This document shows, one piece after another, positions 300 through 21,146 of a stretch of DNA of 21,265 bases (position 1 is its first letter; every line of letters begins with the position of its first letter). The stretch lies in the NCBI RefSeq assembly GCF_021869965.1, contig NC_063380.1:4066974-4088238 (forward strand), read 5' to 3'. A program made the translations under genes and the position numbers. The notes under the pieces were generated by a model. That model made no database searches, was not told where the DNA came from, and was given only the letters and a program-made list of their open reading frames with translations. The DNA comes from Rhincodon typus (Eukaryota).

Positions 300-745
300 G
301 ATCATTGGAAGCAAAGCACGTGAGAGAAGCGGCAAGATCAGGAAGGAGGAATAGAACAACATTTAAACCCAATGATTGCAGGGTTGAGCCACACATTTTA
401 CACTTGAATCTCCCCTTGTGCGGCCTTTACGAAAAGCCTTCTCAAAGCCCTGGTGAACCACATCCACTGGCTCCTCCTTACCCACTCTACTAGTCACATC
501 CTTAGAAAACTCTCGTAGATTTGCCAAGCATGATTTCCCTTTCGTAAATCCACCATGACACTGTCCAATGCTGTCACTCTTTTACAACGGACTCTAGAAT
601 TTTCCCCATTACAGATGTCAGGTTGACTGGTCTATAATTCCCAGTTATCCTCAAATCTGTGGGAAGTGCTCCAGAGTCTACGCAATCTTGCAATTTGATC
701 ACCAATGCAGCCAGTTGGATACAAAACTTGACTTGACTGTAGGAG
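300..745 (-). mobile_element. CR1/L2-type LINE ORF2 fragment (N-terminal RT: ...NYRPVNLTSVMGKILE...VDVVHQGFEKAF...), inverted relative to the adjacent fragment
   Basis: Minus-strand translation carries the RT motifs NYRPVSLTS and VDVVYxDFxKAF. It ends about 20 bp from the kif22 exon acceptor at 281. Confidence 0.55.
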
Positions 746-784
746 ACAGATGGTGGTGGTGAAGGAATTTTTTTTGAATGGAGG

Positions 785-1795
785 CCTGCGACCAGCAGTG
801 TTCCACAGCTCAGTTCACTGTTGCTTGTCGTTTATATAAACGACTTGGATGAGAATATAGGAGGCAATGGGCAGTAAGTTTGCAGATGACACAAAATTGG
901 TGACGTAGTGGACAGTGAAGGTTATCCTGAAGTACAATGGAATCTTTATCAGCTGGGCCAATAGGCCGAGGAGTGGCAGATGGAGTTGAATTTAGATAAA
1001 TGCGAGGTGTTGCATTTTGGTAAGACAAATCAGGGCAGGACTTATACAATCAATGGTAGGGGCCCTGGACAGTGTCGATGAACAGAGACACCTAGGGGTT
1101 CAGGTACATAATTCCTTGGGAGTGGGATAACAGGTTGAAGGCAGCATTTGGCATGCTTGCCTAAGTTGGTCAGAGCATTGAGTGTTGAAGTTGGGAGGTC
1201 ATGTCGGTGCTGTACAGGACATTTGGGAGGCTACTATTGGAGTAGCGCCTGGTCACGAAGGATATTATTCAATTGTAAAGGGTATAGAAAAAATTTACCA
1301 GGATGTTACTGGAACAGGAGCATTCAAGTTAAGAGGAGGGGCTGGATAGGTTGGGACTTTTTTCACTGGGAGCGCAAGGATTGAGGGCTGACCTTGTAGA
1401 AGTTTATAAAATTATGAGGGGCATCGATAAGGTGAGTAGCAAAGGTCTTTTCCTGAGGGTGGGGGGAAGACTTCAAACCCAGAGGGCATAGGTTTAAAGG
1501 TGAGAACGGGGAGACTTAAAAAGGGACCTGACGGGCAACTTTTACCCCTCCCCATTGAGGGTGGTGCGTCTATGGAAGGAACTGATGGAGAAAGTGCTAA
1601 ATGCGGGTACAGTTACAACATTTAAAAGACATTTGGACAGGTGCATAAATGGGAAAGGTTCAGAGGGGACACGGGCTAAGCACAGGAAAATTGGTAAACT
1701 TGGTCCGCATGGAGGAGTTGGACTAAAGGGTTTGTTTCCATGCTGTATGATTCCACAACTCTACGTTGGGATGCAGATTATCCAGGCTCCGTGGA
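785..1795 (+). mobile_element. CR1/L2-type LINE 3' portion (RT from PQGSVLGP through FADDTKL to the ...FKRHLDRCINGKGSEG...CCMIPQLY 3' end)
   Basis: The plus-strand translation, with frameshifts, carries SKFADDTKLV, LHFGKTNQGRTY, LVT..., RIEG.L.EVYKIMRGID and the FKRHLD tail. The terminus ...gtttccatgctgtatgattccacaactctacg is typical of CR1-like 3' ends. Confidence 0.7.
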
Positions 1796-2099: not shown

Positions 2100-3190
2100 G
2101 ATACTGTATTTGTGGTGTTATTTCCTGCAGGGAGCCTCAAACATCCGCCTTTCTCCTCAACCAAGGATGCTCTGCCACATGGTTAAGAGGGCTCTTAGTC
2201 ATGTCTCACCCATTTCCCATACGTCTGCCCTTACTCCTTCTTTTCCCCCCGAACATAATCGAGTCCACCAATCCTCACTTTCTACTCCACCAGCCTCCAC
2301 ATCCAAAGGGTGAAAAGCTGCCATTTCCACCAGCTCCCAACAGACATATTTTCCTGTCCCTTGTCAGCATTCCGCAGGCACTGTTCCCTCTGGGATATCC
2401 TGGCCCGTTCCCAACACCTCCCCACAGCACCATCCTGTACAACTGCAGAAGGTGCAACACTTGCCAGTTTTACTTCCTCTGTCCTCATTATCGAAGGGCC
2501 CAGACACACCGCCCATGTGAAGGAGCAATTTTATCTGTGCTTCCTTGAATCTAGCCTACTGTATTTGCCGCTCACAATGTGGTCTCCTCTATAAAAACGG
2601 GAGACAAAACACAGACTGGTGACCACTTTGCACCTCTGTTCTGTCTATAGGAAGAGCCAACCTTTTAGTTGCCTGCCATTTCAACACACCAGCGTTCCCC
2701 GGCCAACATTTCGGTCCCAAGCATACGACAGCGCTGCAAAGAGACTCAACCCAAGCTGAAGAGCAACACTTCCTCTTCCGTTTGTGGACCAGACAGCCTT
2801 CGCCGAGGTTCACAATCTCAGAGCACTTACACCTGTTTCCATGTCCATGACCCACCCACTCACGCCAAGGGCTTCCATTGCCCAGGACTGCCCATTTTCA
2901 CCCACTCATAGCCCCGAGTATTAACCTATCCACCTTCTCCTCTTCCCTACCTTATCATCAACAATCCCCCTGTCTGCCCACTTTGTTTTCACGCTCTCCA
3001 GGCTCTGTCTCTACCTATCGGCTCTATCCTTTCTCTCCTGCCCCCTGGCATCAGCATGCTTTTTCCCCACCCATCAGTTCTGAAGAAGGGTCACTGGATT
3101 TGATGTCCACGGATGCTGCCAGATCTGCAGAGTTTCTCCAGCAAGTTCTGTTTTTGTGTGTTATGTATTTAATTGGCCTGCCATCTCAGT
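2100..3190 (+). mobile_element. Degenerate Penelope-like (GIY-YIG-type) retroelement 3' fragment with a hairpin-type tail
   Basis: The Cys-rich stretch NCRRCNTCQFYFLC...R resembles the CxxC...YIG zinc-finger/GIY-YIG region. A downstream EEQHFLFRLWTRQP block resembles the EEQHLIFRLGTLQP block common in fish PLE-like repeats. The tail ctgaagaagggtcactgga...gatgctgccagatctgcagag (3060-3175) is shared with the hairpin repeat family. The family assignment is from memory and is low confidence. Confidence 0.33.
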
Positions 3191-6769: not shown

Positions 6770-7794
6770 CTGAAAGACAGGAGGAAGGGAGGTTTAGCTA
6801 CGTGTATAGCCGGGGAAACGTGCTCTCAATTAGCCTTATTACTATTTTAAACAATTTTCCTCGCTAGGCGGTGGAAGCAGATTCCTTGAAAATTTGTACA
6901 GTCGAGGTGGATAGTTTGCTGCTAACCTTTCACCCCTTCCGTCTTCTCCTGCGGGAAGCTGGGAATGTGGAGTAATGAGACCAGCCACGTGTTCTTATTG
7001 TACAGTAGGGTCAGGGATCAAAGAGCCGAGGGTTCCTGCTCCTATTTGAGATGCACAGCACAGAACAGACCGAGGGGCTATCTGATCAAGAGGGGGGCCT
7101 GGTTCTTCCACAGACTGATACCCAGACATTGCATTGGGCAGCAAACACCTTTGAGATTTACAAGGGTTTTATTTTAAAATCAATAGTTTAACACCTTTCC
7201 CTATCCAGAGGCAAACTCCCCACTGGAGAAGAACCCAGCTCCATTTCTTTAAATAAACCAAACAAGAAAAGTGACAATTGCCCACTGCGGGGGTGGGGGT
7301 GGACTGTAACGTGTACCAAAACCAAACATTAACTATGGGAATGGAATTAAAATAATGTTGGACAGGGAAAACAGTGCCCAGCTGGCCTGAAGAACTTCAA
7401 AAAGGTGCAGTACAAAGTCAGAACAATAACAATGAACAAATTTATGACTTTTTGTTTGCAAAAAGAAATCACTTTGCTAATGTAATTTGCTGTAGCTGTC
7501 CAGCTCAGGAAGTTAAATCATTCAATTGAGTGAAGTGTGACTGGGTGTTAACAAACATGTCAGTTATCACCACATGCTCCCTCACCATTGCAGTCACGTC
7601 TGCAGCTGGGTGTCAAAGAGGTGGGCTCTTACTACTTACCTACGTTAGCAAGGCCCACAAAGCCTCAAATGCTTAAAGATCAGGCGTCTGGTGCTGAAAT
7701 GACACCAAAGATTTCTTAAGAAAACGAAAACAGTGTGCAACCTCCCACAACCTGCACACACATGGTCATGGACACAGGAAGCCAGTGGTTTGTT

Positions 7795-8140
7795 TATTTT
7801 TACATAGTATCCCCACAGGGTGGAAACAGGCCATTCGGCCTAAAAAGTCCACACTGACTGTCCCACCCAGACTCAACTCCCCCCTACCCTATCCCTGTAA
7901 CCCTGGATTTCCCATGGCCAATCCACCTATATCACACATCCCTGGGCACTACAGGGCAACTTAGCACAGCCAATTCACCCTAGCCTGCACATCTTTGCAC
8001 TGTGGGAGGAATCCGGAGCACCCGGAGGAAAACCAAGCAGACGTGGGGACAATGTGCAAAGTCCACACAGTCGCCCAAGGGTGGAATCGAACCCAGGCCC
8101 CTTACAACAGTGTTAACCACTGAGCCACCATGAAATTTAA
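7795..8140 (-). mobile_element. tRNA-derived SINE with a LINE-type 3' tail (...gggccgaatggcctgtttcc...)
   Basis: The minus strand begins catggtggctcagtggttaacactg...ggggcctgggttcgattcc (a tRNA-like A/B-box head). The body is ...cacattgtccccacgtctgcttggttttcctccgggtgctccggattcctcccacagtgcaaagatgtgcaggctagg..., and the tail is shared with CR1-like LINE ends in this window. Confidence 0.6.
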
Positions 8141-8214
8141 AAAATGAAACTCAGGAACCTCTTCCCCCACCCCACCACACAAGGGGCACCACAACATTAA
8201 CCAAAACCTGAGGG

Positions 8215-8285
8215 ACTCTTGTTGCATGGTGGTAGTGTCCCTATCTTTGGACCAGGCGGTTCAAGTCCCACCTGCGCCAGAAACT
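8215..8285 (+). repeat. tRNA-like SINE head fragment (ggtggtagtgtccc...ggttcaagtcccacctgcgcca); a related antisense fragment lies at about 6283-6325
   Basis: It has a T-arm-like ggttcaagtcc plus a CCA-like end, but no complementary 5' acceptor strand upstream, so it is not a functional tRNA. Confidence 0.3.
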
Positions 8286-8896
8286 TGCAATAGCATCTCT
8301 GAAGAGGCTGTTTCCAACATATTGAACCCAATGCTAAAAACCACAAGTGAGGGACAGTAAGATAATGACTAAATCAAATCTTATAGGACGGGGAACTGAT
8401 GTCCCCAGCCAGAAGCCGGCTCTTAAATACAACAGCCCGCTATTTGATCAACTCCGGAACTATTCTGGCATACCTTTCAAAGCCAAGTGCATTTCTAGAC
8501 TGACACTCTCTGCATGGAGGCAATGGGATGAGTCAGTTGCCTGGCAGCTGGTTTGCAATGCAGTGTAGGGCCAACAGCATGGACTCAATTTCACACTGGC
8601 CGAGGGTCACCATCACTCTCACCAGTTTGTCCCAATCTCTCTTCATAGGACGGTTTCCCCAAACGCCCCTCCCCCGCCCAGTGTGACTAGGTGTGTCTGG
8701 ATTAAATTCCATCTGCCATTTCTCCGCCCAAGTCTCCAGCCTATCTATATCCTGCTGTATCCCCTGGCAACTTTAGGGTGAGGAGGGGTGTGTCAGTCGC
8801 TACCGTGAGAGAACACCGAGCTCTGCAATCGCGGTCCATTTTGACCTTACAGCCACGTCGCCATCTCAGCTTGGCGGTGAAGGGAGGGAGGGCGTG

Positions 8897-9204: not shown

Positions 9205-10320
9205 ATCACTATGCAGGGAGTGCCACACTTTTATTCCTTTGTTGGATGAGTGTGTCACCGGTTGGGCCCAGCATTTACTACTCTTCCTAGTTGTCCCTTG
9301 AGGAGGTGGGGGTGAGCTGCCTTCTCGAACCGCTGCAGTTCACGTGCTGTAGGTAAGACCCACAATGCCATTAGAGAGGCAATTCCAGGATTTTAACCCA
9401 GTTAAAAGGAAGAGCTGATATACTTCCAAGTCAGGATGGGGAGTGGCTCGGTGGGGAACTTGCAGGGGGCTGCTGTTCCCACATATCTGCTGCCCCTTCT
9501 CCTTCTGGATGGAAGTGGCCGTGGAAGGTGCTGCCTGAGGATCTTTGGGGACTTTCTGCAGCATTTTATAGATGGTACACACCGCTGCTACTGAGCATTG
9601 GTGGTGGTGGCAGATGTTGGACAGGCTTTGGGGAGTCAGGTGGTGAATTACTTGCAGCAGTATACCCAGCCTCTGACCTGTTCTAATAGCCATAGTATTC
9701 ATATGACGAGTGCAGTTCAGTTTCTGGTCAATGGTAACCCCAAGGATGTTGATATTGGGGGAAATTCAGTGATGATAATACCATGGAATGTCAAGGGGAC
9801 AGTGGTTAGATTGTCCCCACTAAGTGACAGTCATAGCCTGGCACTTGTACAGTGCAAATATCTCTTGCCACTTGTCAGCCCAAGCATGGACGTTGTCCAG
9901 TTCTTGCTGCTTCTGGACTGCTTCAGTGTCTGAGGAGCCGTGAACGGTGAAGATTGTGCGATCATCGGCAAATATCCCCACTTCTGACCTTACGATGGTA
10001 GGAAGGTCATTGATGAAACAGCTGAAGGTGGTTGAGCTCTAGGGCACTACCCTGAGGAAATCCTGCAGAGATTTGCCGGAACTGAGATGACTGAACTTCA
10101 ACGACCGTAACCATTTTCCTACGTGCCAGGTACCACTCCAACCTGCAGTTCCCCGATGCCCATCGATTCCAGTCTTGATACCACACTCAGTCGAACGTGA
10201 CGTTGATGGGGTGTGGGTTCGTTGTTCCTTGAAAGCAGAGTTGCGCGTAGGCAGGGTGATGAAGGCTGCATTTAATATTCCATCTACACTTCTTGTTGCC
10301 GTGGAAAGGCTGTCGACATT
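9205..10320 (-). mobile_element. LINE family A, 3' portion (RT ...RKMVTVVE.QSSQ...GFPQGS... to the SVAAVCTIYKM... C-terminus); the 3' end lies at about 9205 next to the kinesin ATG exon
   Basis: The minus-strand translation is colinear with the plus-strand copy at 18295-19430 (the same blocks SVAAVCTIYKM, ATSIQKEKGQQI.GN.SPLQVP and 3' UTR ctgcagcggttc...aataaatgctgggcc). Confidence 0.7.
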
Positions 10321-10856
10321 ATCATAGACCCCTCCAACCCTGGTAATATTCTCTTCCTTCTGGCAGAAGATACAGAGACTCGAATACATACACCAACAGG
10401 TTCAAGAACAGCTTCTCTCCCCTCTGTTATTAGACTGCTAAACAGACCTCTCTAATGTCAAATTACTTTTTGTACACCTCCTGCGCAGTTGTAACATTGC
10501 ACACCTCAGTCTGTCTGGGTGCCTGTCCATCCGAAATAAAAACCGAAAGAACTGCGGATGCTGTAAATCAGGAACAACAACAAAGTTGCTGGAAAAGCTC
10601 AGCAGGTCTGGCAGCACCTGTGAAGGAGAAAACAGAGTTAACGTTTCAGGTCCGGTGACCCTTCCTCAAAACACGCACACTGAGGAAGGGTTCTGAGAAA
10701 GGATCATCGGACCCGAAATGTTAACTTTGGTTTTTCCTTCACAGATGCTGCCAGATCATGTCTGTCCTTGTTTGCTATGATCTGCGACTGCTGCTTGCAA
10801 AACAAAACTTTTCACTGTAGTTGGGTAGACATGACAACAATAAATCAAATCAAAAG
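10320..10856 (+). mobile_element. LINE family B (L2-type, ...IIDPSNPGNILF...SLPSVIRLLNRPL*) C-terminus plus 3'UTR ending ...cactgtagttgggtagacatgacaacaataaatcaaatcaaa; a hairpin repeat is embedded in the UTR
   Basis: It matches the minus-strand family B copy at 15893-17340 (KDPSHPGYTLF...NRFENSF and the same ...acatgtgacaacaataaatcaaac terminus). Confidence 0.6.
10540..10770. repeat. Full-length hairpin short repeat (arms about 95 nt; loop ...ggtgacccttcctcaaaacacgcacactgaggaagggtt...)
   Basis: The left arm gcggatgctgtaaatcagg...gctcagcaggtctggcagcacctgtgaaggagaaaacagagttaacgtttcaggtc is the reverse complement of the right arm gacccgaaatgttaactttggtttttccttcacagatgctgccagatcatgtctg. Confidence 0.65.
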
Positions 10857-11455: not shown

Positions 11456-12132
11456 ATACAAGTCAGGACGTCACGTACAGGACATTGGTGAGGCCACTTT
11501 TGGAATACTGCATTCGACTCTGGTCTCCCTGGTATAGGGAAGATGTCACGAGGAGTGGCAGATGGAGTTTAATTTAGCTAAGTGTAAGATGTTGCATTTT
11601 GGAAAGGCAAATCGGGGCAGGACTTATACACTTAATGGTAAGGTCCTGGGAAGTGTTGCTGAACAAAGAGACCTTGGAGTGCAGGTAGACAGGGTGGTGA
11701 AGGCGGCGTTTGGTACACTTTCCTTTATTGGTCAGAGCACTGAGTACAGGATTGGTTAGAGACAAAAAAAACTGCAGATGCTGGAATCCAAGGTAGACAA
11801 ACAGAAGGCTGGAAGAACACAGCAAGCCAGGCAACATCTGGAGCAAAGGAGCAGTCAATGTTTTGGGTATTACCCTTCCTCAGGGCTGGAGACCTGAAGA
11901 AGGGTAATGCCCAAAACCTTGACTTCTTCCTTTCTCCAGATGCTACCTGGCTTGCTGTGTTCTTCCAGCCTCCTGTTTGTCTGCATTGAGCTTAGCAGTT
12001 GGGAGGTCGTGTTGTGGCTGTAAATGTTAGACCACTTTTGGGACACTCCCTTCAATTCCAGTCTCCCTGCTGTAGGAAGGATGCTGTGAAACTCAAAAAG
12101 GTTCAGAAAAGAATTACAATGGATTTGCCAGG
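11445..12132 (+). mobile_element. CR1-like LINE (family C) 3' portion in inverted orientation: an LVRPLLEYCIRLWSPWYREDV fragment, then EWQMEFNLAKCKMLHFGKANRGRTYTLNGKVLGSVAEQRDLGVQV...FIGQSTEYR, interrupted by a hairpin repeat, then ...LVRP-like/CRKDAVKLKKVQKR...
   Basis: From the plus-strand translation. It shares a 19-bp core gtcaggacgtcacgtacag (11451-11469) with the minus-strand copy. Confidence 0.62.
11757..11965. repeat. Hairpin short repeat copy inserted in the LINE (aaaaaactgcagatgctggaatcc...ctggaagaacacagcaagccaggcaacatctggagcaaaggag / ctttctccagatgctacctggcttgctgtgttcttccagcc)
   Basis: The arms are reverse-complementary. It interrupts the LINE ORF between ...FIGQSTEYR and the downstream LINE sequence. 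Confidence 0.62.
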
Positions 12133-12905
12133 GTTTGAGCCATAGGGAGTGGCTGGGGTTATTTTCCCTGGAGCGTCAGAGGCTGAGGGGTGTCCTTATA
12201 GAGGTTTATAAAACGATGAGGGGCATGGATAGGGTAAATAAACCAGGTCTTTTCCCCAGGGTGGGGGAGCCCAGAACTAGAGGGGCATAGATTTAAGGTG
12301 AGAGGGGGAAAGTGTAAGGGTTTGAGCTACAGGGAGAGGCTGGATAGGCTGGGGCTATTTTCCCTGGAGCATCGGAGGCTGAGGGGGTGACCTTACAGAG
12401 GTTTATAAAACCATGAGGGGCACTGAGTAGGGTAAATAAACAAGGTCTTTTCCCCAGGGTGGAGGAGTCCAAAACTAGAGAAGCATAGGTTTAAGGTGAG
12501 AAGGGAAAGATTTAAAAGGATATGGAGAGGCTGAGGGGGTGACCTTATAGAGGTTTATAAAACCATGAGGGGCAATGGATAGGGTAAATAAACAAGGTCT
12601 TTTCCCCAGGGTAAGGGAATGTCAAGAACTAGAGGGGCATAGGTTTAAGGTTGGTGGGGAGGGGGGGGGGGATTTAAAAGGATATTGGAGGGTTTGAACT
12701 ACAGGGAGAGGCTGAGGGGGTGACCTTATAAAGGTTTATAGAACCACGAGGGGCAACGGAGGGGCAATGGCCAAGGAGCAGAGGGTCATAGGTTAAAGGT
12801 CAGAGAATAAAGGTTTTTAAAAAAGGATCCAAAGAGACATTTTCTTCAACACGCAGAGGGTGCCACGTGCTGCCAGAGGAAGTAATACAATCATAACATT
12901 TAAAA
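12133..12905 (+). repeat. Tandem array (about 4 units of 165-210 bp) derived from the CR1-like LINE 3' coding tail (...ERLG.FSLE.RRLRGDLIEVYK.MRG.DRVN.QGLFPRV.ES.TRGH.FKV.GE..K..)
   Basis: The unit gagaggctgagggggtgaccttatagaggtttataaaaccatgaggggca..ggatagggtaaataaacaaggtcttttccccagggt...agaactagaggggcataggtttaaggt... starts again near 12133, 12311, 12521 and 12686. The last unit runs on into ...FFNTQRVPRAARGSNTIITFKK, close to the LINE C-terminal motif, and stops 27 bp from the putative exon-1 donor. A G11 run lies at 12661-12671. Confidence 0.7.
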
Positions 12906-13260
12906 AGGCGTCCTTTCAGTTAGTCTCTTACCTGTTTTTTCTCCCCTCGCCGGCCAGAACGGGTTCTCTCACTCATCCCAACCGCCGCCCGATTCAAATC
13001 TGACCAGAGCCCCGCCCCCCGGCTCCCGAGCGCCTCATCTGACTGGTCCGCTGCCCCGTCGTCACCCCAACTCTATTGGCCGCCATGCGCAGGCCCGCCC
13101 CCATAACGGAAGGGGCGGCTCGCCGCCTCCGGTTGGCCGAAGTACACGTCAATCGTAGACACGCCCACCTTCCCATTGGGCGGGCGTCCCAGTTGGTCAC
13201 GTGCCACGGCACCCATTGGACGCTTCAACCGTCTATCATCTGTACCGCGACCTGTTCCCC
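12900..13260 (-). promoter_or_regulatory. CpG island with 3 CCAAT boxes plus CHR (TTTGAA) and GC boxes; candidate cell-cycle (G2/M-type) promoter oriented toward the minus-strand kinesin gene
   Basis: The segment is very CpG dense in an otherwise CpG-poor window. Plus-strand ATTGG (minus-strand CCAAT) sits at 13075-13079, 13175-13179 and 13215-13219. TTCAAA (minus-strand TTTGAA, the CHR) is at 12993-12998. Sp1-like ccccgcccccc is at 13010-13020 and gggcggg at 13179-13185. Confidence 0.4.
12932..12995 (-). other. KIF22: Putative non-coding exon 1 (5'UTR) of the kinesin gene; the TSS end is not defined
   Basis: Minus strand reads ...gggagaaaaaacag|gtaagagactaactg, a consensus donor at 12932/12931-12930, immediately downstream of a CHR element and three CCAAT boxes. 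The ATG exon at 9152 starts at a strong acceptor, which implies an upstream exon. Confidence 0.3.
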
Positions 13261-13261
13261 T

Positions 13262-13445
13262 CTGAGATAGGAGGAACTGCAGATGCTGGAGAATCTGAGA
13301 TAACAAGGTGTAGAGCTGGATGAACACAGCAGGCCAAGCAGCATCATAGGAGCAGGAAGGCTGACGTTTCGGGCCTAGACCCTTCTTCAGAAAATGATGC
13401 TGCTTGGCCTGCTGTGTTCATCCAGCTCTACACCCTGTTATCTCT
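13262..13445. repeat. Full hairpin short repeat copy inserted in the CpG island (ggaactgcagatgctggagaatctgagataacaaggtgtagagctggatgaacacagcaggccaagcagcatc ... gatgctgcttggcctgctgtgttcatccagctctacaccctgttatctc)
   Basis: The arms are perfect or near-perfect reverse complements. Confidence 0.68.
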
Positions 13446-13960
13446 GTTCCCCTCTGATATTGGATTTACCGGAACGCCCGCCCCTCCAGGCCCGCGCCTG
13501 CAACCCACTGGTTATTCCTCAATACATTCTTCCAATCGGATTGGAAGATTCTGTTGTCAGTCACCAGTCTTGCTGCCCGTCTCATTCGCCTCCCGCCCCT
13601 AATGGTTTACATTGGTCGATCCAACCATCCATCATTCACGCTTCCCACCCATCCGGTACTACCTGTCAATCAACTCTCGGACCTGCCTCCTGCGGATGGG
13701 ACTGCTTTTTGACCTTTCCCCGCCCCTTCCGCTGTGCTGATGTCACCTCCCATTAGTTTGTCCTGGTGTCAATCACCGAATCCTGTCCTCCATTGGTTTC
13801 TGCAGCTGCCCATCAGCGGAACGGCCCAAGCGGAGGAGACGGGACATTCCTGTTCCCTCCCACATTCAGACTTCCTGTTCCCTCCCACATTCAGACTGAG
13901 GAGTCTCCAAATAGTTTGCCTCCAAACAAAGTCGCTGCTTCAATAACTCCTTCTCACTTC
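13446..13960. promoter_or_regulatory. Second GC-rich block carrying a palindromic CCAAT pair (cttccaatcggattggaag, about 13536-13554), further ATTGG/CCAAT boxes, TGATGTCA, and a 2x tandem 24-bp motif (tcctgttccctcccacattcagact, 13845-13892)
   Basis: Read directly from the sequence. It is separated from the 12900-13260 island by a hairpin-repeat insertion. Confidence 0.25.
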
Positions 13961-14091
13961 CTCAGTCTCTCTGCATTCTTATCTATCATTTTCTGTAGGA
14001 CTTCTGTCGCAGTGGTAAGCATTATTACTGCCAGAGCTATTACTCTCAGGATTGTTACCGTGAACCAGTTCCTGCTATCAGGAGTAGAGAT

Positions 14092-14175
14092 AGTAGGAAC
14101 TGCAGATGCTGGAGAATCCGAGACAACAAGGTGCAGGGCTGGATGAACACAGCAGGCCAAGCAGCATCAGGAGTA
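14092..14175. repeat. Partial hairpin short repeat (left arm only) inside the minisatellite
   Basis: gtaggaactgcagatgctggagaatccgagacaacaaggtgcagggctggatgaacacagcaggccaagcagcatc. Confidence 0.55.
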
Positions 14176-14354
14176 TTGCTTTGTGCCTGTATTATTACTA
14201 ACAGGATTATTACTGTCAGGAGTATTGGTCTGTGTCAAAGTTATTACTGCCAGAGTAATTTTTATCAGGAGTATTACTGTTAGAATTATGTCTGTCGGGA
14301 GTATTACTGACAGAGTGATTGCTATCTGGAATATTATTGCCAGAATTATTACTA

Positions 14355-14495
14355 GGAGCTAGCAAGAACTGCAGGTGCTGGAAGTTCAGAGTCAATACAG
14401 TGTGAGCTGGAGGAACACAGCAGGTCAGGCAGCATCAGAGGAGCAGGAAAGTCAATTTTTCAGATTGGGACCCTTCGTCAGGATGGAATTATTAC
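14355..14495. repeat. Partial hairpin short repeat (left arm plus loop) inside the minisatellite
   Basis: gcaagaactgcaggtgctggaagttcagag...gagctggaggaacacagcaggtcaggcagcatcagaggagcaggaaagtcaatttttcag. Confidence 0.5.
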
Positions 14496-14769
14496 TATCA
14501 ATTGTATTACAGTCTGTCACTTATTACTAACAGGAATATTATGATGTGCTAGTGTTGTTACTGACAGGATTAGTTCTGTGAAATTTATTCTTGTCAACAG
14601 TATTTCTGTCAAAGTTACCCTATCAGGAGGATTTCCATCCAAGATATCCCTGCTTGGAGTTCTATTTCCAGAGTTACTATTGGCAGGAGTTTTACTGCTA
14701 GAATTATTACTATCATGTGTGTTACTGTCTCAGAGGAATTACTATCAGAATTATTGCTATCAAAAGTCA

Positions 14770-15715
14770 CAGTGATCAGGGGGGATTTCAATATGCAGGT
14801 GGACTGGGAAAATCATGTTGGCAGTGGATTGCAAGAAAAGGAGTTTGTGGAATGTCTACGAGATGGCTTTTTGGAGCAGCTCGTGGTGGAGCCCACAAGG
14901 GAACAGGCAATACTGGATTTAGTGTTGTGCAAATTGGCAGATTTGATAAAGGAGCTTAAGGTGAAGGAACCCTTAGGAGGCAGTGATCATAAGATGATAG
15001 AATTTACTCTGCAATTTGAGAGGGAGAAGATAGAATCAGAGGTAACGGTATTACAGCTGAATAAAGGCAACTACAGAGGCATGAGGGAGGAGCTGGGCAG
15101 AATTGACTGGAAGATGAGCCTAGCGGGAATGACAGTGGAACAGCAATGGCAGGAGTTTCTGGGAGTAATTCAGGAGACACAGCAAAAATTCATATCTCAG
15201 GAAGGATGTACTGGCCCTGGAGCAGGTTCAGAGGAGGTTCACGAAAATGGTCCCAGGAATGGAAAGCTTAACGTACGAGGAACGTTTGAGGACTCTGGGT
15301 CTATACTCGTTGGAGTTTAGACAGATGAGGGGGGATCTAATTGAAATTTTCAGAATACTGAATGGCCTGGACAAAGTGGATGTTGGGAAGATGCTTCTAT
15401 TGGTAGGAGAGACTAGGACCCAAGGGAACAGCCTTAGAGTAAAGGGAAGACCTTTTAGAATGGAGATAAGGAGAAACCCCTTCAGCCAGAGAGTGGTGAA
15501 TCTATGGAATTCACTGCCACAGAAGGCTGTGGAGGCCAGGTCATTGAGTACATTTAAGACTGAGATAGATAGGTTCTTTATTAACAAGGGGATCAAGGGT
15601 TACAGGGAGAAAGCAGGAGAATGGGGTTGAGGAACTTATCAGCCATGATTGACTGGTGGAGCAGACTCGGTGGGCCGAATGGCCTAATTTCTGCTCCTAT
15701 GTCTTATGGTCTTAA
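14770..15715 (+). mobile_element. Internally deleted CR1-like LINE: the ORF2 endonuclease C-terminal fragment (GDFNMQVDWENHVG...LGGSDHKMIEF...) is fused directly to the 3' end (EERLRTLGLYSLEFRQMRGDLIEIFRILNGLDKVD...FKTEIDRFFINKGIKGY... ggccgaatggcctaatttctgctcctatgtcttatggtc)
   Basis: ORFs 14715-15320 and 15247-15630. The SDH motif is the C-terminal motif of APE-type endonucleases, and there is no RT core between the EN fragment and the tail. Confidence 0.7.
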
Positions 15716-15892
15716 AATTATTACTTTCAAGAGAATTACTGCCAGTTATTCCTAACAGGATTATTACTGTTAGAGTTCTTACTATCAGCATTATTACTGT
15801 CAGCTAGAGTTATCAAGATTATTACTGTCATATTTTTCTTATCAGGAGTATTACTTTGAGATTGTAACTGTCAGAATTATTTCTGTTTGAGT

Positions 15893-17340
15893 TTGATTTA
15901 TTGTTGTCACATGTACTGAGATACAATGACAAGTGTTGTTTTGTGTATTAGACAGGCAGATTGTACAATACAAAGTGCATCAGGGTAGCAGAACAGAGGG
16001 CAGAAATGTAGTGTTACAGCCGCAGGAAAGGCACAGAAAAGGAGAGATCAACATTAACATTTGAAAGTGTGATAAGAAGCTGTTCTCAAATCTGTTTGTA
16101 CATGTGTTCAAACTTTTATGCCTTATGCCGGATGGAAGAGGTAGGAAGAGAGTGTAACCGGGGTGGGAGGGGTCTTTGATGATGTTGGTTGCTTTCCCAA
16201 GGCAGTGGGAAGTGTAGATGGAGCCAGTGGATGGAAGGCTGGCTTGTGTGATGGACTGGGCTGTGCTCACAACTCTCTGTCGTTTCTTGTGGTCCTGTGG
16301 TATAGCAACTGTTCTTCCCGCTCTGATGCATCCAGATGGAATGCTTGCTTATGGTGCCTCTATAAAAATTGTTAAGAGTCCTTGTGGACGTGCTGAATTT
16401 CCGTAGCCTCCTGAGGAAGTAGCTGCGTTGTTGTGCCTTCTTGGCCATTGTGTCAACATGGATGGACGTGGCCAGATTGTTGGGTGATCATCGCCTCCCA
16501 GGAACATGACACTCTCGACCGTCTCTATCTCAGCACCATTGGTGCAGACCAGGGCATGTCCTCCACCCCGCTTCCTGACGTCAGTGACCAGCTCCTTCAT
16601 TTTGCTGACATTGGTGGAGAGATTGGTGTCTTAACACCATGTCGCTATGCACTCGGTCTCTTTCCTGTGTCCTGTCTCGTCGTTGTTTAAGACCCGACCT
16701 ACAACAGCAGTGTCATCAGCAAACCTAAATGGAGTTGGAGCGGAATTTGGCCATGGGTGTATAAGGAGTGTGGTAAGGGTATGCAGCCCCGTGGAGCACT
16801 GGTGTTGAGGTATATGGTGGAGGAGGTGTTGTCGCCTAATCTCACTGTCTATGGGTCAGAAAGTCCAGCTACAGAGGTGGGTGGGGGGGGTGGTGTGGAG
16901 CCGAGACCTAGGGCTCAGGGTTTGGAGATGCCTTTGTTTGGGATTATGGCGTTGAAGACGGAGCTGTAGTCCAAGAGTAGACTTGTCATTCAGATGCAGC
17001 GGGGATGAGCATAGGGCCAGGGAGATGGGGTCTGCCATGGGCCCATTGCGCCGGTAGGCACATTGTCTTGATCCTTTGCAATCTGGGAGGCTGGCGTTAA
17101 TATGAGCCCTGACTTAACTCTCGAAGCACTTCATAACGATGGAGGTGAGGGCAGTAGTCTGCATGACTTTTCTTCGGCACCGGGATGATGGCAGCCTCCC
17201 TGCAGCGGGTGGGGACTTCGGATCAGAGTAAGGAGGGGTTAAAGATATCAGCGAATACCAGCAGCCAGCCTGTCCACACAGGATCTGAGCGCGTAGCCCG
17301 GGACTCTCTATCCAGGGCCTGCCGCTTCTCGTGGGTTTTC
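15893..17340 (-). mobile_element. Internally deleted L2-type LINE (family B). The RT N-terminus (...NPGKPTRSGRPWIESPGLRAQ...ALTSIVMKCFE) is joined to the C-terminus (...LVTDVRKRGGGHALVCTNGAEIETVESV...MAKKAQQRSYFLRRLRKFSTSTRTLNNFYRGTI...KDPSHPGYTLFLPLPSG...NRFENSF)
   Basis: Minus-strand ORFs 17114-17398, 16349-16600, 16116-16448 and 15980-16270. The 3' terminus ...acatgtgacaacaataaatcaaac lies at about 15895-15950. Confidence 0.7.
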
Positions 17341-17514
17341 CAGGGTTAATGTTTTTGCGATTACTACTGTCAGAGTTATCACTATCCAGCTTTATCACTT
17401 GTCTGTCAGTGTTCTTTCTGTCTGCCTGGATTGTTACTGGTGGAATGTTTCAAGGGCGCGACCAAGTGTTTGGATGAGGGTGGGGCACTAGAACTGGCTT
17501 TGTATGGATTTCAG

Positions 17515-18150
17515 CAAGGCGTTTGACATGGGAAGCTGATAGACTCACACAGCTCGGAAACAGACCCTTCTGTCCAACCAGGTCATGCTGAGAGTAATCG
17601 CGAACTAAACTAGTCCCAACTGCCTGCACTTGGCCCATATCGCTTCAAACATTTCCTATTCATGTACTTATCTAAGTGCCTTTTAAATATTACAATTGTA
17701 AGCGCAACCACCAATTACTCAGGACATTTATTCCACATGCAAACCATTCTCTATCTTAAAAAAAAAAGTTGCCCCCATGTCTTTGTTAAATCTTTCTCCT
17801 TTCACCTTAAAAATATGTTCCCTAGGCTTGGAAACCATCCCCCACCCTAGGGAACAGATACCTGCCATTCACCTTATCTATACCCTCTCGTTATTTCATA
17901 AACCTTTATAAGGTCACCTCTCAATCTCCTATGCTCTAGTGAAAAAGTCCCAGCTTATCCCGCCTCTCCATATAACTCAAACCCTCCATTCCCGGCAACA
18001 TCCTGGTAAATCTCTTCTGTACCCTTTCCAGTACCTTTCCTACAACTGGGAGACCAGAACTGGACACAGTGCTCCAGAAGAGGCCTCACCAATGTGCTGT
18101 ACGATCTCAACACGACGTCCCCAACTCCTACACTCAAAGGTCTGAGCAAT
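17515..18150 (-). mobile_element. CR1-like LINE (family C) 3' portion (TLVRPLLEHCVQFWSPSCRK...LGLFSLEHRRLRGDLIKVYEI...FKRHLDKYMNRK...), with a small plus-strand RT fragment (...ALYGFQQGV, the YMDFSKAFD motif) at 17450-17525
   Basis: Minus-strand ORF 17955-18149 and the downstream translation. The terminus is ...ctgtttccgagctgtgtgagtctatcagc. Confidence 0.6.
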
Positions 18151-18159
18151 GAAGGTAAA

Positions 18160-18258
18160 GAAGGTAAAAGTTATTGGGTTTCAGGGTAATTTAGCAAGTT
18201 GGAATCAAAATCAGCTTTGTGACGGGACACAGAGGGTAGAGGTAAAAGGCAAAAGACA
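18160..18258 (+). mobile_element. Short LINE RT fragment (KVIGFQGNLASWNQNQLCDGTQRVEVKG, similar to ...HGI.G.LL.WI.NWL..R.QRV.V.G)
   Basis: Read from the plus-strand translation. It is inverted relative to the adjacent minus-strand LINE piece. Confidence 0.35.
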
Positions 18259-18294
18259 GGATTATTACTGTCAGAGGTATTGCTCTCAGAGCTA

Positions 18295-19430
18295 AACTCC
18301 TGAGGTGAGGTGAGAGTGACAGCCCTTGACGTCAAGGCTGCGTTCGACCGAGTGTGGCATCACAGAGCCCTAGCAAAACTGGAATCAATGCCAATCAGGG
18401 GGCAAACTCTCTGCTGGTTGGAGTCACACCTGACACAGAGGAAGATGGTCATGGTTGTTGGAGGTCAATCATCTCAGCTCTGGGACATCTCTGCTGGAGT
18501 TCCTCAGGGTAGTGTCTTAGGCCCAACCATCTTCAGCTGCTTCATCAATGACCTTCCCTCCATCATAAGGTCAGAAGTGGGGGATGTTCACCGATGGTTA
18601 CACAATGTTCAGCACCATTTGTGACTCCTCAGATACTGAAGCGGTCCGTGTTCACATGCAACAAGATCGGGACAATATCCAGGCTTGGGCTGACAAGTGG
18701 CAAGTAACATTCGCGCCACACAAATACCAGGCCAGGACCATGACCAATAAGAGACAATCTAACTGCCATTGACGTTCAGTGGTGTTACCATCCCTGAATC
18801 TACCCATTATCAATATCCTGGGGGTTGCCATTGACCAGAATCTCAACTGGACTCCCCACATAAACATGAGCAGGTCAGAGGTTAGGAATACTGTAGCAAG
18901 AAACTGACATCCTGACTGTCCACTTGCCTGGATGAATGGACCTCCAACAACAGTCAAGAAGCTTGACATCATCCAGGACAAAGTAGCCTGGATTGGCACC
19001 ACATCCACAAACATCCCACTCCACCCGCCACCACCGAAGCTCAGTTGCAGCAGTGTGTACCATCTACAAGATGCCCTGCAGAAATTCACCAAAGACCCTC
19101 AGGCAGCATCTTCCAAACCCCACGGCCACTTCCATCCAGAAGGACAAGGGGCAGCAGATACACGGGAACACCAGCCCCCTGCAAGTTCCCCTTTGAACCA
19201 CTCTTAATCCTGACTTGGAAATATATCGCCGTTCCCTCAATGTGGCTGGGTCACAATCCTCGAATTCCCTTCCTAAGAGACACTGTGGGTCTACCCACAG
19301 CTTATGGACTGCAGCGGTTCAAAAAGGGAGCTCACCACTATCTTTTCAAGGGGCTGCTAGGGACAGGCAATAAATGCTGGGCCTAGCCAGTGATGCCCAC
19401 ATCCCACAGATGTATTAAAAAAAATTGTTA
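18295..19430 (+). mobile_element. LINE family A 3' half (RT ...LDVKAAFDRVWH...QRKMVMVVGGQSSQ...GVPQGSVLGPTIFSCFINDLP...MFTDGYTMF[FADD-box degenerate]...SVAAVCTIYKM... to the 3'UTR ...ggcaataaatgctgggcctagccagtgatgcccacatcccacagatgtattaaaaaaaa)
   Basis: ORFs 18310-18624, 18584-18772, 18993-19196 and 19045-19386. It is colinear with the minus-strand copy at 9205-10320 and ends in an A-rich tail. Confidence 0.72.
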
Positions 19431-19689
19431 CTGTCTGCCAGAGGTATCACTCTCAGGATTATTACCGCCTGTCCGAATTATTACTGTCAACTATTTCTAC
19501 CTGGCTTTTTACTGTTAACCAGGGCTATTACTGTCAAGATTATTCCTAGTAGGATTATTACACTCATTCCAAAAGTGTCAGAACTATTACTGTCTGCATA
19601 GCTTACCTACTGCCATGAATATTACTGACTGCCAAGATTATTACAATTAGGAGTTTCTTTTATTTTTTGCTGACAGCATTAATACCATT

Positions 19690-20245
19690 GGGATTATCAC
19701 CAGAAAATAAGAGGGACAAGGTAAGTTATGAGCGCAAACTAGCAAGTATACAAAACTGGCTTCTTTATATGAAAACGAGGAGAGGAGCTAAAGAGAAATT
19801 GGATAATGGAAAATAGTAATGGGGAACCAGGAAATGGAAAAGGAACTGAATACATATTTAGCATCAGTCTCCTAGTAATATTCTGAAATGACTAAATAAA
19901 CAAGAAGGAGGGGAAATAAATCCAATTACTATTTCGAGAGAAAAGTGTTGGTAAAACTAATGGGGCTAACGACCGATAAATCTGGATCTGATGAGATACA
20001 TCCTAGAATTTACAGAGGGTGGTTCATGTGTGGAATTAACTTCCAGAGGAAGTGGTGGGTATGGGTTCAGTTACAACGTTTAAAAGACACTTGGATAAGT
20101 ACATGAGTAGGAAAGGTTTGGAGGGACAGGAGCCAGGAGCAGGCGGCTGGGACTAGTTTAGTTCGGGATTATGTTTGGCGTGGACTGGATGGATCGAAGG
20201 GTGTGTTTCTATGCTGTATGACTCTGTGACCAGCTACAGAGATAG
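19690..20245 (+). mobile_element. Degenerate, internally deleted CR1-like LINE: RT N-terminus (...LKTDKSPGPD-like ...ASIQNWL...RINLDLMRYILEF) joined to the 3' end (FKRHLDKYMSRKGLEGQ...CVSMLYDSV)
   Basis: From the plus-strand translation. The terminus is ...gtgtgtttctatgctgtatgactctgtgac. Confidence 0.45.
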
Positions 20246-20249
20246 TGGG

Positions 20250-20723
20250 GACAGAATAATCTCCGTTTCCACCTCTCTGTCTCGCTGCCTGTAACAAAAG
20301 TTGGTCTCATTGTGGTGAGTCTCTGTCTCCCTCTCCAGCTGTTCTCACTGCGGTCTCTCTCGCTCTCTTTCTTGCTCCCTGGCTTGTGCTGTCGCTGTCA
20401 CTTTCGCTGTCTTGCGCTCTCTCGCTCTCGCCCTTGCTCTCTCGCTCTACCATGCTCCCTGGCCCTCGCCCTCTCTCTTACCCTCTCTTGCCCTTGCCCT
20501 CTCACTCTTGCCCTTGCCCCACCTTCTCGCCCTTGCCCCCCTCTACTCTTTCTCACCCTTGCTCTCTCGCTCTCTGTCTGCCCTCTCTCGCTCTCTCTCG
20601 TTCTACCATGCTCCATGGCCCTCACCCTCTCTTACCCTCTCTCGCCCTTGCCCTCACCCCCACTCTCACCCTCTCTCACCCTTGCTCTCTCTCTGCCCTT
20701 TCTCACCCTTACTCTGTCGCGCA

Positions 20724-20761
<38 letters not shown>

Positions 20762-20860
20762 GCCCTACACCGTCCCTCCAGCCAGTCTCGCTGTGGTCAC
20801 TCTCTCTGTCTCTCTTCCTCCCCACCCTGTCCAGTTGGTCTCCTAGTGGACAATCCCTAG
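20250..20860 (+). repeat. About 600-bp polypyrimidine (CT-rich) low-complexity tract with (CT)~16 at 20726-20758 and an internal duplication of about 160 bp (20440-20600 against 20600-20760). It lies immediately upstream of the pagr1 exon
   Basis: Read directly. All long ORFs here (20312-20860, 20386-, 20412-20846) are SLSL/PLPL low-complexity artefacts. Confidence 0.8.
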
Positions 20861-20862
20861 GC

Positions 20863-21146
20863 ATGCAGACAGAGGATGCTGACCCTGCAGTCAGCCTAGC
20901 TGAACTGACTGTGGACACTGAGGATTCATGGTGCGTTGAATGCAGTGACCAGGAGATCCAGGATGCAGAGACGTGGACTCCGAGCCCCCAAGAGATCCTA
21001 CGCCTGTATGGCGCCCTTGCTGAGGAGGGAAGCAGCCTTGAACTGAGCTGCAGACCCCTACCCCGCCGTCCACCAACTCCCGAGGCTGACCCTACAGAGG
21101 AGGAGGCGGAAGAAGAGGAGGAGGCGGAAGAGCAGGCCACTGAGAA
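20863..21146 (+). CDS. PAGR1: First coding exon of a PAGR1 (PAXIP1-associated glutamate-rich protein 1) orthologue: [94 protein letters not shown](K)
   Basis: It matches the recalled human PAGR1 block EDWCVPCSDEEVELP...[43 protein letters not shown] followed by a glutamate-rich tail. The donor is GAGAA|gtaagataat at 21147. An acceptor-like ccctgtccag|TTGG at about 20834 may mark the exon start. The upstream in-frame CT-repeat translation is not credible coding. Confidence 0.55.

What the first reader, a model, noticed from the sequence alone, without database searches (positions are those of the whole stretch)
13990..19690. A 15-bp-period minisatellite array of about 5.7 kb acting as a TE landing pad: at least eight nested insertions, most of them truncated or internally deleted
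The degenerate 15-mer ATTACTGTCAGGAGT-like unit reappears in seven separate blocks. Every gap between blocks is a different TE fragment: two partial hairpin repeats, an EN-to-3'-end deleted CR1-like LINE, a deleted L2-type LINE, a CR1-like 3' piece with an inverted RT scrap, a family A LINE with an A-tail, and a deleted CR1-like LINE. Three of the LINEs have lost their RT core while keeping both ends. This pattern suggests recombination or microhomology-mediated deletion inside the array rather than simple 5' truncation. The array lies between two divergent genes and next to the CpG island, so it may behave as a heterochromatic spacer.
Basis: seen in the sequence. Interest (0 to 1): 0.5.

Follow-up and report, generated by a model that had tools for sequence, protein, structure and literature searches.

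The report
Old minisatellite broken up by transposons
About 1.1 kb of an old, decayed 15-bp tandem repeat lies between the KIF22 and PAGR1 genes of a shark-like genome, split into seven pieces by ordinary retroelement insertions; it is real and ancient but shows no sign of attracting transposons.

Summary
The repeat is real. TTATTACTGTCAG-like cores occur 53 times against about 6 expected, almost all on the + strand between 14022 and 19682, in seven blocks. With the insertions removed, 1145 bp remain, and lenient TRF reads them as one 15-bp array of about 66 copies at 52% match. So the "5.7 kb array" is about 1.1 kb of satellite plus about 4.6 kb of retroelements.

- The L2 is a plain 5'-truncated copy with its RT in place, so two LINEs lack the RT core, not three.
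- Both partial hairpin repeats have perfect flanking duplications (10 and 12 bp), which suggests they arrived already truncated.
- Both RT-deletion junctions lie inside the LINEs, not at the satellite.

A 1038-bp Chiloscyllium plagiosum contig carries the same satellite (87% identical) and the same RT-less LINE upstream of PAGR1. The exon region is only 82% identical, so both features predate a deep species split. That contig also has a recent 88-bp duplication and a roughly 330-bp deletion that starts in the satellite, so the array does change over time.

The "landing pad" idea is not supported. Repeat cover is similar in the adjacent KIF22 intron, the families are mixed, and insertion points differ. 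This is an ordinary fossil minisatellite of low interest.

The parts
14019..14086 (+). Satellite block B1. It includes the CTCTCAG dimer variant at 14022-14051 and the left copy of the 10-bp flanking repeat ATCAGGAGTA at 14077-14086.
14087..14165 (-). G1: partial hairpin-repeat element (head plus left arm only), 94% identical to 13264-13346. It is flanked by ATCAGGAGTA, 10/10. Read as a 5'-truncated retroposed copy if the element's RNA is the minus strand (inference).
14166..14354 (+). Satellite block B2, the best preserved block, with 15- and 30-bp periods.
14355..14485 (-). G2: older partial hairpin-repeat element (head, left arm and loop), 81% identical to the full copy. It is flanked by GAATTATTACTA, 12/12.
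14486..14764 (+). Satellite block B3.
14765..15713 (+). G3: CR1-like LINE lacking its RT. The endonuclease C-terminus plus linker (reference residues 120-265) is joined at about 15193-15200 to the C-terminal region and 3' end (residues 776-901). About 510 residues are missing.
15714..15889 (+). Satellite block B4.
15890..17359 (-). G4: L2-type LINE, 5'-truncated. It is colinear with L2 reference proteins from just before the RT to the C-terminus, with no internal RT deletion and many stops and frameshifts.
17360..17440 (+). Satellite block B5.
17441..18255 (.). G5: a plus-strand CR1-like RT fragment (17441-17540 plus 18160-18255, about 200 bp, no 3' end). A nested minus-strand CR1-like 3' piece (17541-18159, reference residues 752-905) splits it.
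   Evidence: the RT reading was made by eye from the translations
18256..18296 (+). Satellite block B6 (41 bp). It is close to a duplicate of the start of B7 and may be a long target-site duplication of G6.
18297..19417 (+). G6: 5'-truncated non-LTR element running from RT motifs to an A-rich tail (ATTAAAAAAAA). A second copy lies at 9229-10180 on the minus strand.
19418..19700 (+). Satellite block B7, the most degenerate block, with a 19-bp spacing variant. Positions 19470-19597 are 87% identical to the C. plagiosum contig L001.
19701..20235 (+). G8: CR1-like LINE at the right edge of the array. Its linker joins the 3' end directly at about 20016, so the RT is missing. The same junction is present in C. 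plagiosum.
12750..13500 (.). Context: CpG island and CCAAT-rich promoter region of KIF22 (minus-strand ATG at about 12975). It may be shared with PAGR1.
20863..21146 (+). Context: first coding exon of PAGR1 (Pfam PAXIP1_C). A conserved splice acceptor lies at about 20834.

Best explanation
This is a fossil minisatellite. A 15-bp tandem array with consensus TTATTACTGTCAGAG, now about 1.1 kb and roughly 66-75 units at only about 52% match to the consensus, arose in the 7.8-kb head-to-head interval between KIF22 and PAGR1. It probably lies in a PAGR1 5'-UTR intron.

The array arose before the source species and Chiloscyllium plagiosum diverged. It has since decayed as neutral, CpG-depleted DNA. 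Like the neighbouring introns of this LINE-rich genome, it took retroelement insertions at unrelated positions:
- two hairpin retroposon copies, probably truncated when they inserted
- one L2, with simple 5' truncation
- several CR1-like LINEs
- one A-tailed LINE, possibly with a target duplication of about 30 bp

Ordinary later events reshaped it further. These are internal deletions in two CR1-like copies, loss of the 3' part of one RT fragment, one nested insertion, and lineage-specific slippage or unequal exchange and deletion within the repeat.

Shown here: the periodicity, a single repeat family in one orientation, the element identities and their coordinates on reference proteins, and orthology with C. 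plagiosum.

Inferred: the order of events, the target-site duplications, the retroposon mechanism for the hairpin element, the intronic location, and the absence of function.
For: - Periodicity and family: core enrichment is 53 against 5.85 expected, in one orientation. Spacing is 15 or 30 nt. TRF on the TE-masked concatenate gives one 15-bp array of 65.7 copies, and lag-15 autocorrelation has z = 9.5. One repeat family spans all blocks.
- No coding potential: no reading frame stays open across the blocks.
- Element identities: an APE-type endonuclease fragment and RVT_1 by Pfam, L2 homologues carrying RVT_1 plus PF09004, and CR1-like homologues.
- Reference mapping: the L2 is colinear with its references. 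G3 and G8 lack the RT.
- Flanking repeats: 10/10 at G1, 12/12 at G2, 13/15 at G3 and about 16/18 at G6. Each motif is matched equally well at only 1-3 other places among the roughly 70 satellite units.
- Hairpin element: a full copy has a perfect 14-bp target-site duplication, above all 300 random controls.
- Orthology: C. plagiosum contig L001 carries the satellite at 96/110 identity and the same RT-less G8 junction upstream of PAGR1. The exon region is only 81.7% identical and the LINE 3' part 75%.
- Background: repeat cover is 0.81 in the array span and 0.77 in KIF22 intron 1.
- Neutral decay: CpG o/e is 0.1-0.3 in the array.
Against: - Only one locus and one short orthologous contig (1038 bp) were available, so whether the satellite is dispersed across the genome is unknown.
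- TSD calls inside a tandem repeat are ambiguous, because in-phase neighbouring units resemble each other. The candidates at G4 and G5 fall in the conserved core and carry no information.
- The RT scrap without a 3' end, and the CTCTCAG dimer variant seen at three sites 4-5 kb apart, are not explained.
- The satellite segment is somewhat more conserved between species (87%) than the adjacent LINE (75%). Fisher p = 0.04, but this is biased by the choice of HSP. It leaves a small opening for constraint.
Confidence: 0.75

Rival explanations
1. The satellite is a preferred landing pad for TEs, and recombination or microhomology-mediated deletion inside the array produced the truncated and RT-less copies.
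For: - There are seven insertions within 5.7 kb plus one at the edge.
- Two RT-less CR1-like LINEs and one RT scrap lack what simple 5' truncation would retain.
- Three TE/satellite junctions on the truncated side fall at CAGGA, a motif of the satellite unit (sequence).
- C. plagiosum lacks about 330 bp, with breakpoints in the satellite and at a satellite-like TTACTAT motif in the LINE, and it has a 96.6%-identical 88-bp duplication.
Against: - Repeat cover and fragment density match KIF22 intron 1: 0.77 against 0.81, both lower bounds.
- At least five element types inserted at different phases of the 15-mer.
- The L2 is intact in extent.
- The hairpin fragments carry perfect flanking repeats.
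- Both RT-deletion junctions are internal to the LINEs, and one predates the species split.
- One locus cannot demonstrate enrichment.
Confidence: 0.15
2. The satellite-like blocks are internal tandem repeats of one transposable element, or tails of the inserted LINEs, and not a host array.
For: Some TEs carry internal minisatellites. Genome-wide distribution could not be examined here.
Against: - The blocks flank seven different elements in both orientations, yet always keep the same strand and consensus.
- No terminal repeats or coding capacity are associated with them.
- None of the other copies of the same LINE and hairpin families in the window has such units next to it.
- The same satellite sits at the orthologous position in C. 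plagiosum.
Confidence: 0.03
3. The array is a conserved cis-acting element. It could be a cluster of TGACAG/TGTCA (TALE-homeodomain type) sites, an insulator between the two promoters, or an intronic splicing decoy. On this view it has been kept in place by selection despite the insertions.
For: - It has kept its position between KIF22 and PAGR1 across a deep divergence, and the satellite segment is 87% identical against 75% for neighbouring LINE DNA.
- Every consensus unit contains CTGTCA. That this is the reverse complement of the MEIS/TGIF-type hexamer comes from my own knowledge and was not tested.
Against: - Units match the consensus at only about 52%, with 16% indels.
- The array tolerated seven insertions and, in C. 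plagiosum, a deletion and a duplication.
- CpG depletion is typical of bulk methylated DNA.
- The conservation contrast rests on 75-110 bp and on a chosen HSP.
Confidence: 0.05
4. The blocks are a degenerate coding repeat, that is, a pseudogenised exon encoding a pentapeptide repeat such as DSNNP on the minus strand.
For: Minus-strand translations contain short runs such as PDSNN and SDSNN.
Against: All six frames are interrupted every few units, and the frame shifts with the indels. No protein homology was seen.
Confidence: 0.02

Closest known systems
Vertebrate minisatellites (VNTR-type arrays with 10-100-bp units), in their old degenerate "fossil" form
   Same: It has a 15-bp unit arranged head to tail in one orientation, a net length of about 1.1 kb and a 30-bp higher-order pattern. 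Copy number changes between lineages, as shown by the 88-bp block duplicated in C. plagiosum.
   Different: It is far more decayed than active hypervariable minisatellites, at about 52% match. It is AT-rich, not GC-rich. Polymorphism within the species is untested.
Nested retroelement insertions in neutral repetitive DNA. TE-interrupted satellites and nested TE clusters have been described in many plant and animal genomes (own knowledge).
   Same: Several unrelated retroelements are inserted into one repeat tract. One insertion is nested in another, and most copies are truncated.
   Different: This is a small euchromatic tract beside a promoter, not pericentromeric heterochromatin. No excess over the adjacent intron was seen.
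Repeat-targeting site-specific non-LTR elements, such as the R1/R2 clades in rDNA and microsatellite-specific LINEs (own knowledge)
   Same: LINEs lie inside a tandem repeat.
   Different: Those elements insert one family at one fixed position of the unit. Here, at least five element types sit at different unit positions, and the same families also occur outside the array.
Known LINE insertion and decay structures: 5' truncation, microhomology at 5' junctions, twin-priming inversions and internal deletions, as described for mammalian L1 (own knowledge)
   Same: G4, G5b and G6 are simple 5' truncations. G3 and G8 have internal deletions with short possible microhomologies. Another copy at 366-1760 has an inverted 5' part.
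   Different: The elements here are of CR1 and L2 type. It was not established whether the RT-less copies arose during retrotransposition, after it, or as amplified deletion derivatives.

Membership tests
Minisatellite (tandem repeat, unit 10-100 bp) | A consistent unit length in the minisatellite range | tested here: met
   The period is 15 bp: TRF gives 65.7 copies, lag-15 autocorrelation has z = 9.5, and core spacing is 15 nt 15 times and 30 nt 5 times.
Minisatellite (tandem repeat, unit 10-100 bp) | Head-to-tail copies in a single orientation forming one array | tested here: met
   47 of the 50 core matches inside the span are on the + strand. One repeat family spans all seven blocks. Contiguity before the insertions is inferred.
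Minisatellite (tandem repeat, unit 10-100 bp) | Copy-number instability or polymorphism | tested here: inconclusive
   There is a between-species difference: an 88-bp block is duplicated at 96.6% identity in C. plagiosum, which also has a deletion of about 330 bp. No population data were available.
Dispersed satellite family | Arrays of the same unit at many genomic loci | not testable with these tools
   No shark genome could be searched by DNA. In the window, the only matches outside 14022-19682 are at chance level.
TE landing pad / repeat-targeted insertion site | More insertions per kb than comparable neutral DNA | tested here: not met
   Lower-bound repeat cover is 0.81 in the span against 0.77 in KIF22 intron 1. 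There are roughly 1.2-1.4 fragments per kb against about 1.6. This is a single locus, so the test is weak.
TE landing pad / repeat-targeted insertion site | The same element family inserted at the same position of the repeat unit | tested here: not met
   Hairpin retroposon, CR1-like, L2 and A-tailed LINE copies are all present, and the left junctions fall at different positions of the 15-mer.
CR1-like LINE (G3, G5, G8) | Homology to APE-type endonuclease, RT and the conserved C-terminal region of CR1-type ORF2 | tested here: met
   Pfam Exo_endo_phos_2 matches weakly (E = 1e-4, below the gathering score). Full-length ORF2 homologues of about 900 aa match both parts. tblastn gives the coordinates on them. 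Assignment to the CR1 clade itself rests on recall, not on a phylogeny.
L2-type LINE (G4) | RT followed by the L2-type C-terminal domain, colinear with L2 ORF2 | tested here: met
   Hits carry RVT_1 plus PF09004 with E values down to 3.5e-67. The alignment is colinear over reference residues 213-658.
LINE-mobilised retroposon (hairpin element G1, G2) | Target-site duplications of variable length, and 5'-truncated copies that keep a constant 3' end | tested here: inconclusive
   TSD-like repeats of 14, 12 and 10 bp are present. Both partial copies keep the same end. The transcribed strand, the 3' tail match to a partner LINE and genome-wide copies were not established. There is no Rfam match.

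The most novel reading that the evidence does not exclude
The array may be more than junk. A block of about 70 TGTCA/TGACAG-containing units would then have been kept at the KIF22-PAGR1 bidirectional promoter or first intron since before two distantly related sharks diverged. It would act as a cis element, such as a homeodomain-site cluster, a boundary element or a splicing decoy, and would survive despite repeated TE insertions. A milder version is that the satellite is a local hotspot of deletion and duplication that shapes how TEs decay around it.
Probability: 0.06. Interest if true: 0.5.

Novelty: new member of a known kind. Interest (0 to 1): 0.18.

Why it matters
It matters little on its own. 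It is a clean small example of how a tandem repeat and its nested retroelements persist in a slowly evolving, LINE-rich genome. The satellite and an RT-less LINE can still be recognised as orthologous in a species whose PAGR1 exon region is only 82% identical.

It is also a caution for annotation:
- Several "deleted" TEs are simple truncations or were inserted already truncated.
- TE density inside a repeat has to be compared with the local background before it is called a landing pad.

The hairpin retroposon family seen in passing may deserve more attention than the satellite. One young copy sits inside the KIF22 CpG island.

Tried and rejected
- **Coding repeat.** Six-frame translation of every block shows no sustained ORF. 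Rejected.
- **Orthologous loci through proteins.**
  - The PAGR1 exon search gave a single hit, from C. plagiosum.
  - The KIF22 search returned almost no shark entries with genomic contigs.
  - An exact-sequence look-up of the window's PAGR1 ORF found nothing.
  - Only the 1038-bp contig L001 was retrievable, so the left six blocks have no comparative data.
- **Amplified deletion-derivative family for G3.** Short proteins P0242 and P0245 looked like copies with the same deletion. They turned out to be tandem duplications of the linker region, so they give no support.
- **Segmental duplication.** I checked whether the array span and KIF22 intron 1 are duplicates of each other. The shared families are not colinear and are only 65-78% identical. 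Rejected.
- **Twin priming for G5.** The plus-strand RT fragment lies on both sides of the minus-strand piece, so nested insertion fits better.
- **Phase continuity of the 15-mer across insertions as a TSD test.** Phase drifts even within blocks, so the test is uninformative.
- **RNA searches.** Rfam and tRNA scans of the window found no hits.
- **Literature.** Searches for the hairpin head sequence and for shark satellite or hairpin repeats found nothing relevant.
- **Metagenome pattern scan.** Not run. Even the window contains no exact two-unit match, so an exact-pattern scan could not find such degenerate arrays.

Full report
**Context**

The window is vertebrate DNA, most likely from a shark.
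- The minus strand carries kinesin motor exons whose conceptual translation matches KIF22 proteins at 65-80% identity. The start codon is at about 12975.
- A CpG island lies at 12750-13500 (GC 0.58-0.61, CpG o/e 0.76-0.91) and contains several CCAAT boxes.
- On the plus strand, 20863-21146 encodes the N-terminal exon of PAGR1. It matches Pfam PAXIP1_C at E = 4e-14 and is 80% identical to Chiloscyllium plagiosum PAGR1.
- The two genes are therefore head to head and about 7.8 kb apart, and the reported feature fills most of that gap.
- A polypyrimidine tract plus CAG acceptor 28 nt before the PAGR1 ATG is conserved in C. plagiosum. A donor-like CAGTG|GTAAGC sits at 14016, at the left edge of the repeat. 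The array may therefore be intronic, in a PAGR1 5'-UTR intron, and not strictly intergenic. This is inference and has no transcript support.

**Is the repeat real?**

Yes.
- The core TTATTACTGTCAG with up to 3 mismatches occurs 53 times, against 5.85 +/- 2.1 in dinucleotide shuffles (largest 11). Of these, 47 are on the + strand between 14022 and 19676.
- Successive cores are 15 nt apart 15 times and 30 nt apart 5 times. In the last block only, they are 19 nt apart 4 times.
- Sliding autocorrelation peaks at lag 15 or 30 exactly where the blocks lie.
- An independent repeat finder puts one family in all seven blocks.
- The blocks are 14019-14086, 14166-14354, 14486-14764, 15714-15889, 17360-17440, 18256-18296 and 19418-19700.
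- After removing everything between them, 1145 bp remain. Stringent TRF sees only local pieces. With lenient penalties TRF reports a single 15-bp array: 65.7 copies, 52% matches, 16% indels, consensus TTATTACTGTCAGAG. The lag-15 autocorrelation has z = 9.5 and lag-30 has z = 6.5.
- The "5.7 kb array" is a span. The satellite itself is about 1.1 kb and badly decayed.
- No reading frame stays open through the blocks, so it is not a coding repeat.

**What lies between the blocks?**

I mapped the gaps with intra-window BLAST, Pfam and reference LINE proteins retrieved (tblastn).
- **G1 (14087-14165) and G2 (14355-14485).** These are partial copies of a hairpin repeat. The full copy at 13266-13443 folds at -114 kcal/mol with z = -11.6. 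Both partial copies keep the head and left arm only.
- **G3 (14765-15713, +).** This is CR1-like. Reference residues 120-265 (endonuclease C-terminus and linker) abut residues 776-901 at about 15193-15200. About 510 residues, including the whole RT, are missing.
- **G4 (15890-17359, -).** This is L2-type, with homologues carrying RVT_1 plus PF09004 at E values down to 3.5e-67. It is colinear with the references from about residue 213 to residue 658 of 664.
- **G5 (17441-18255).** This is a plus-strand CR1-like RT fragment of about 200 bp. A nested minus-strand CR1-like 3' piece (17541-18159, reference residues 752-905) splits it.
- **G6 (18297-19417, +).** This element runs from RT motifs (Pfam RVT_1 positions 70-145) to an A-rich tail. 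A second copy lies at 9229-10180.
- **G8 (19701-20235, +).** This is CR1-like and sits at the right edge of the array. Its linker (P0244 residues 244-319) joins reference residues 875-908 directly at about 20016, so the RT is missing again.

Two LINEs, not three, lack the RT core.

**Were the truncated copies damaged inside the array?**

The evidence is mixed and mostly points elsewhere.
- G1 is flanked by ATCAGGAGTA (10/10) and G2 by GAATTATTACTA (12/12), directly at the element ends. Each motif recurs only once or twice among the roughly 70 other units.
- A full-length hairpin copy outside the array has a perfect 14-bp duplication, better than any of 300 random controls.
- Variable-length duplications, together with partial copies that always keep the same end, fit a LINE-mobilised retroposon that was 5'-truncated on insertion, with its RNA on the minus strand. 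That mechanism is inferred.
- G3 (13/15) and G6 (about 16/18; block B6 is nearly a duplicate of the start of B7) also have plausible flank repeats. Those at G4 and G5 lie in the conserved core and prove nothing.
- The RT-deletion junctions of G3 and G8 are inside the LINEs and have at most 3-4 nt of possible microhomology. They do not involve satellite sequence.

What remains in favour of post-insertion loss is limited:
- The RT scrap in G5 has no 3' end.
- Three TE/satellite junctions fall at CAGGA, a motif of the unit.

**Comparative evidence**

This is the most informative result. The only retrievable orthologous DNA is a 1038-bp C. plagiosum contig (QPFF01126908.1, locus L001).
- Upstream of its PAGR1 exon it carries the same satellite. 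L001 23-132 aligns with window 19470-19597 at 96/110, or 87%.
- It also carries the same CR1-like element with the same linker-to-3'-end junction.
- The exon region is only 81.7% identical and the LINE 3' part 75%, so the two species are distant. From general knowledge of slow elasmobranch substitution rates, I estimate a divergence of the order of 10^8 years. This is rough and was not computed here.
- The array and the RT-less G8 therefore predate that split.
- L001 also shows that the array is not static. An 88-bp block of units is duplicated at 96.6% identity. About 330 bp present in the window (about 19600-19925, the end of B7 plus the 5' part of G8) are absent. The breakpoints are in the satellite and at a satellite-like TTACTAT motif in the LINE.

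**Is it a landing pad?**

Within this window there is no excess.
- A lower-bound repeat annotation (intra-window families plus LINE protein homology) covers 0.81 of the array span and 0.77 of KIF22 intron 1, which lies just across the promoter.
- That intron holds at least six TE pieces in 3.8 kb, including the same families. The array has seven in 5.7 kb.
- The inserted elements belong to at least five types in both orientations, and their left junctions fall at different positions of the 15-mer. This is unlike repeat-targeting LINEs.
- One locus cannot settle enrichment, and the genome-wide test could not be run.

**Other readings**

- **Part of a TE.** This is unlikely. Other copies of the same TE families in the window have no such units beside them, and the blocks keep one strand whatever the orientation of the neighbouring element. 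The satellite is also positionally orthologous in another species.
- **Functional cis element.** This cannot be excluded. It rests only on a small and biased conservation contrast (87% against 75%, Fisher p = 0.04) and on the CTGTCA core in each unit. The heavy decay, the indels, the tolerated insertions and the CpG depletion argue against it.
- **"Heterochromatic spacer".** This is untestable here.

**Verdict**

It is wrong in several particulars: the L2, the count of RT-less LINEs, the origin of the partial hairpins and the landing-pad claim. This is an ordinary fossil minisatellite with nested retroelements. Its only notable property is that it can still be recognised across a deep shark divergence.

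Two details remain unexplained:
- A CTCTCAG dimer variant occurs only at 14022, 18262 and 19425.
- The RT scrap has no 3' end.

Noticed in passing
window 13266-13443; also 11757-11985, 10540-10765, and 1960-2035 with 3065-3150: A hairpin repeat family with a near-perfect stem of about 50 bp (RNA fold -114 kcal/mol, z = -11.6) and a non-palindromic head, GGAACTGCAGATGCTGGA. The youngest copy sits inside the KIF22 CpG island and has a perfect 14-bp target-site duplication, CTGTTCCCCTCTGA. There is no Rfam match. It looks like a LINE-mobilised retroposon, not a cut-and-paste MITE.
   Followed up: partly
window 12151-12900: The 3' region of a CR1-like LINE in KIF22 intron 1 is tandemly repeated. 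TRF reports a 198-bp period, 88% match and 1.8 copies, and further degenerate copies are visible up to about 12760.
   Followed up: no
window 20300-20840 and L001 about 560-690: A CT-rich microsatellite and polypyrimidine tract of about 500 bp precedes the PAGR1 coding exon. The C. plagiosum orthologue has only about 100 bp there. The splice acceptor CTGTCCAG| just upstream of the ATG is conserved.
   Followed up: partly
window 13847-13897: A perfect 25-bp tandem duplication (TTCCTGTTCCCTCCCACATTCAGAC, two copies) lies between the CpG island and the satellite.
   Followed up: no
window 366-705 (-) and 779-1760 (+): A CR1-like copy in a KIF22 intron has its RT N-terminal part (reference residues 459-563) inverted next to the direct 3' part (residues 606-909). 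This is the layout expected from twin priming.
   Followed up: partly
window 14022-14051, 18262-18291, 19425-19457: A two-unit satellite variant with CTCTCAG in the second unit occurs only at these three places. The first and third copies are 30/33 identical although 5.4 kb apart. The second and third flank the A-tailed LINE G6.
   Followed up: partly
window 7780-8140 and 8200-8300: A SINE-like sequence with a tRNA-like motif (GGTGGAATCGAACCC, GTTAACCACTGAGCCACC) lies in a KIF22 intron. ARAGORN calls no tRNA there.
   Followed up: partly
window 12975-20863: KIF22 and PAGR1 are direct head-to-head neighbours here. From memory, MAZ and PRRT2 lie between them in human 16p11.2. This was not checked with tools.
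   Followed up: no
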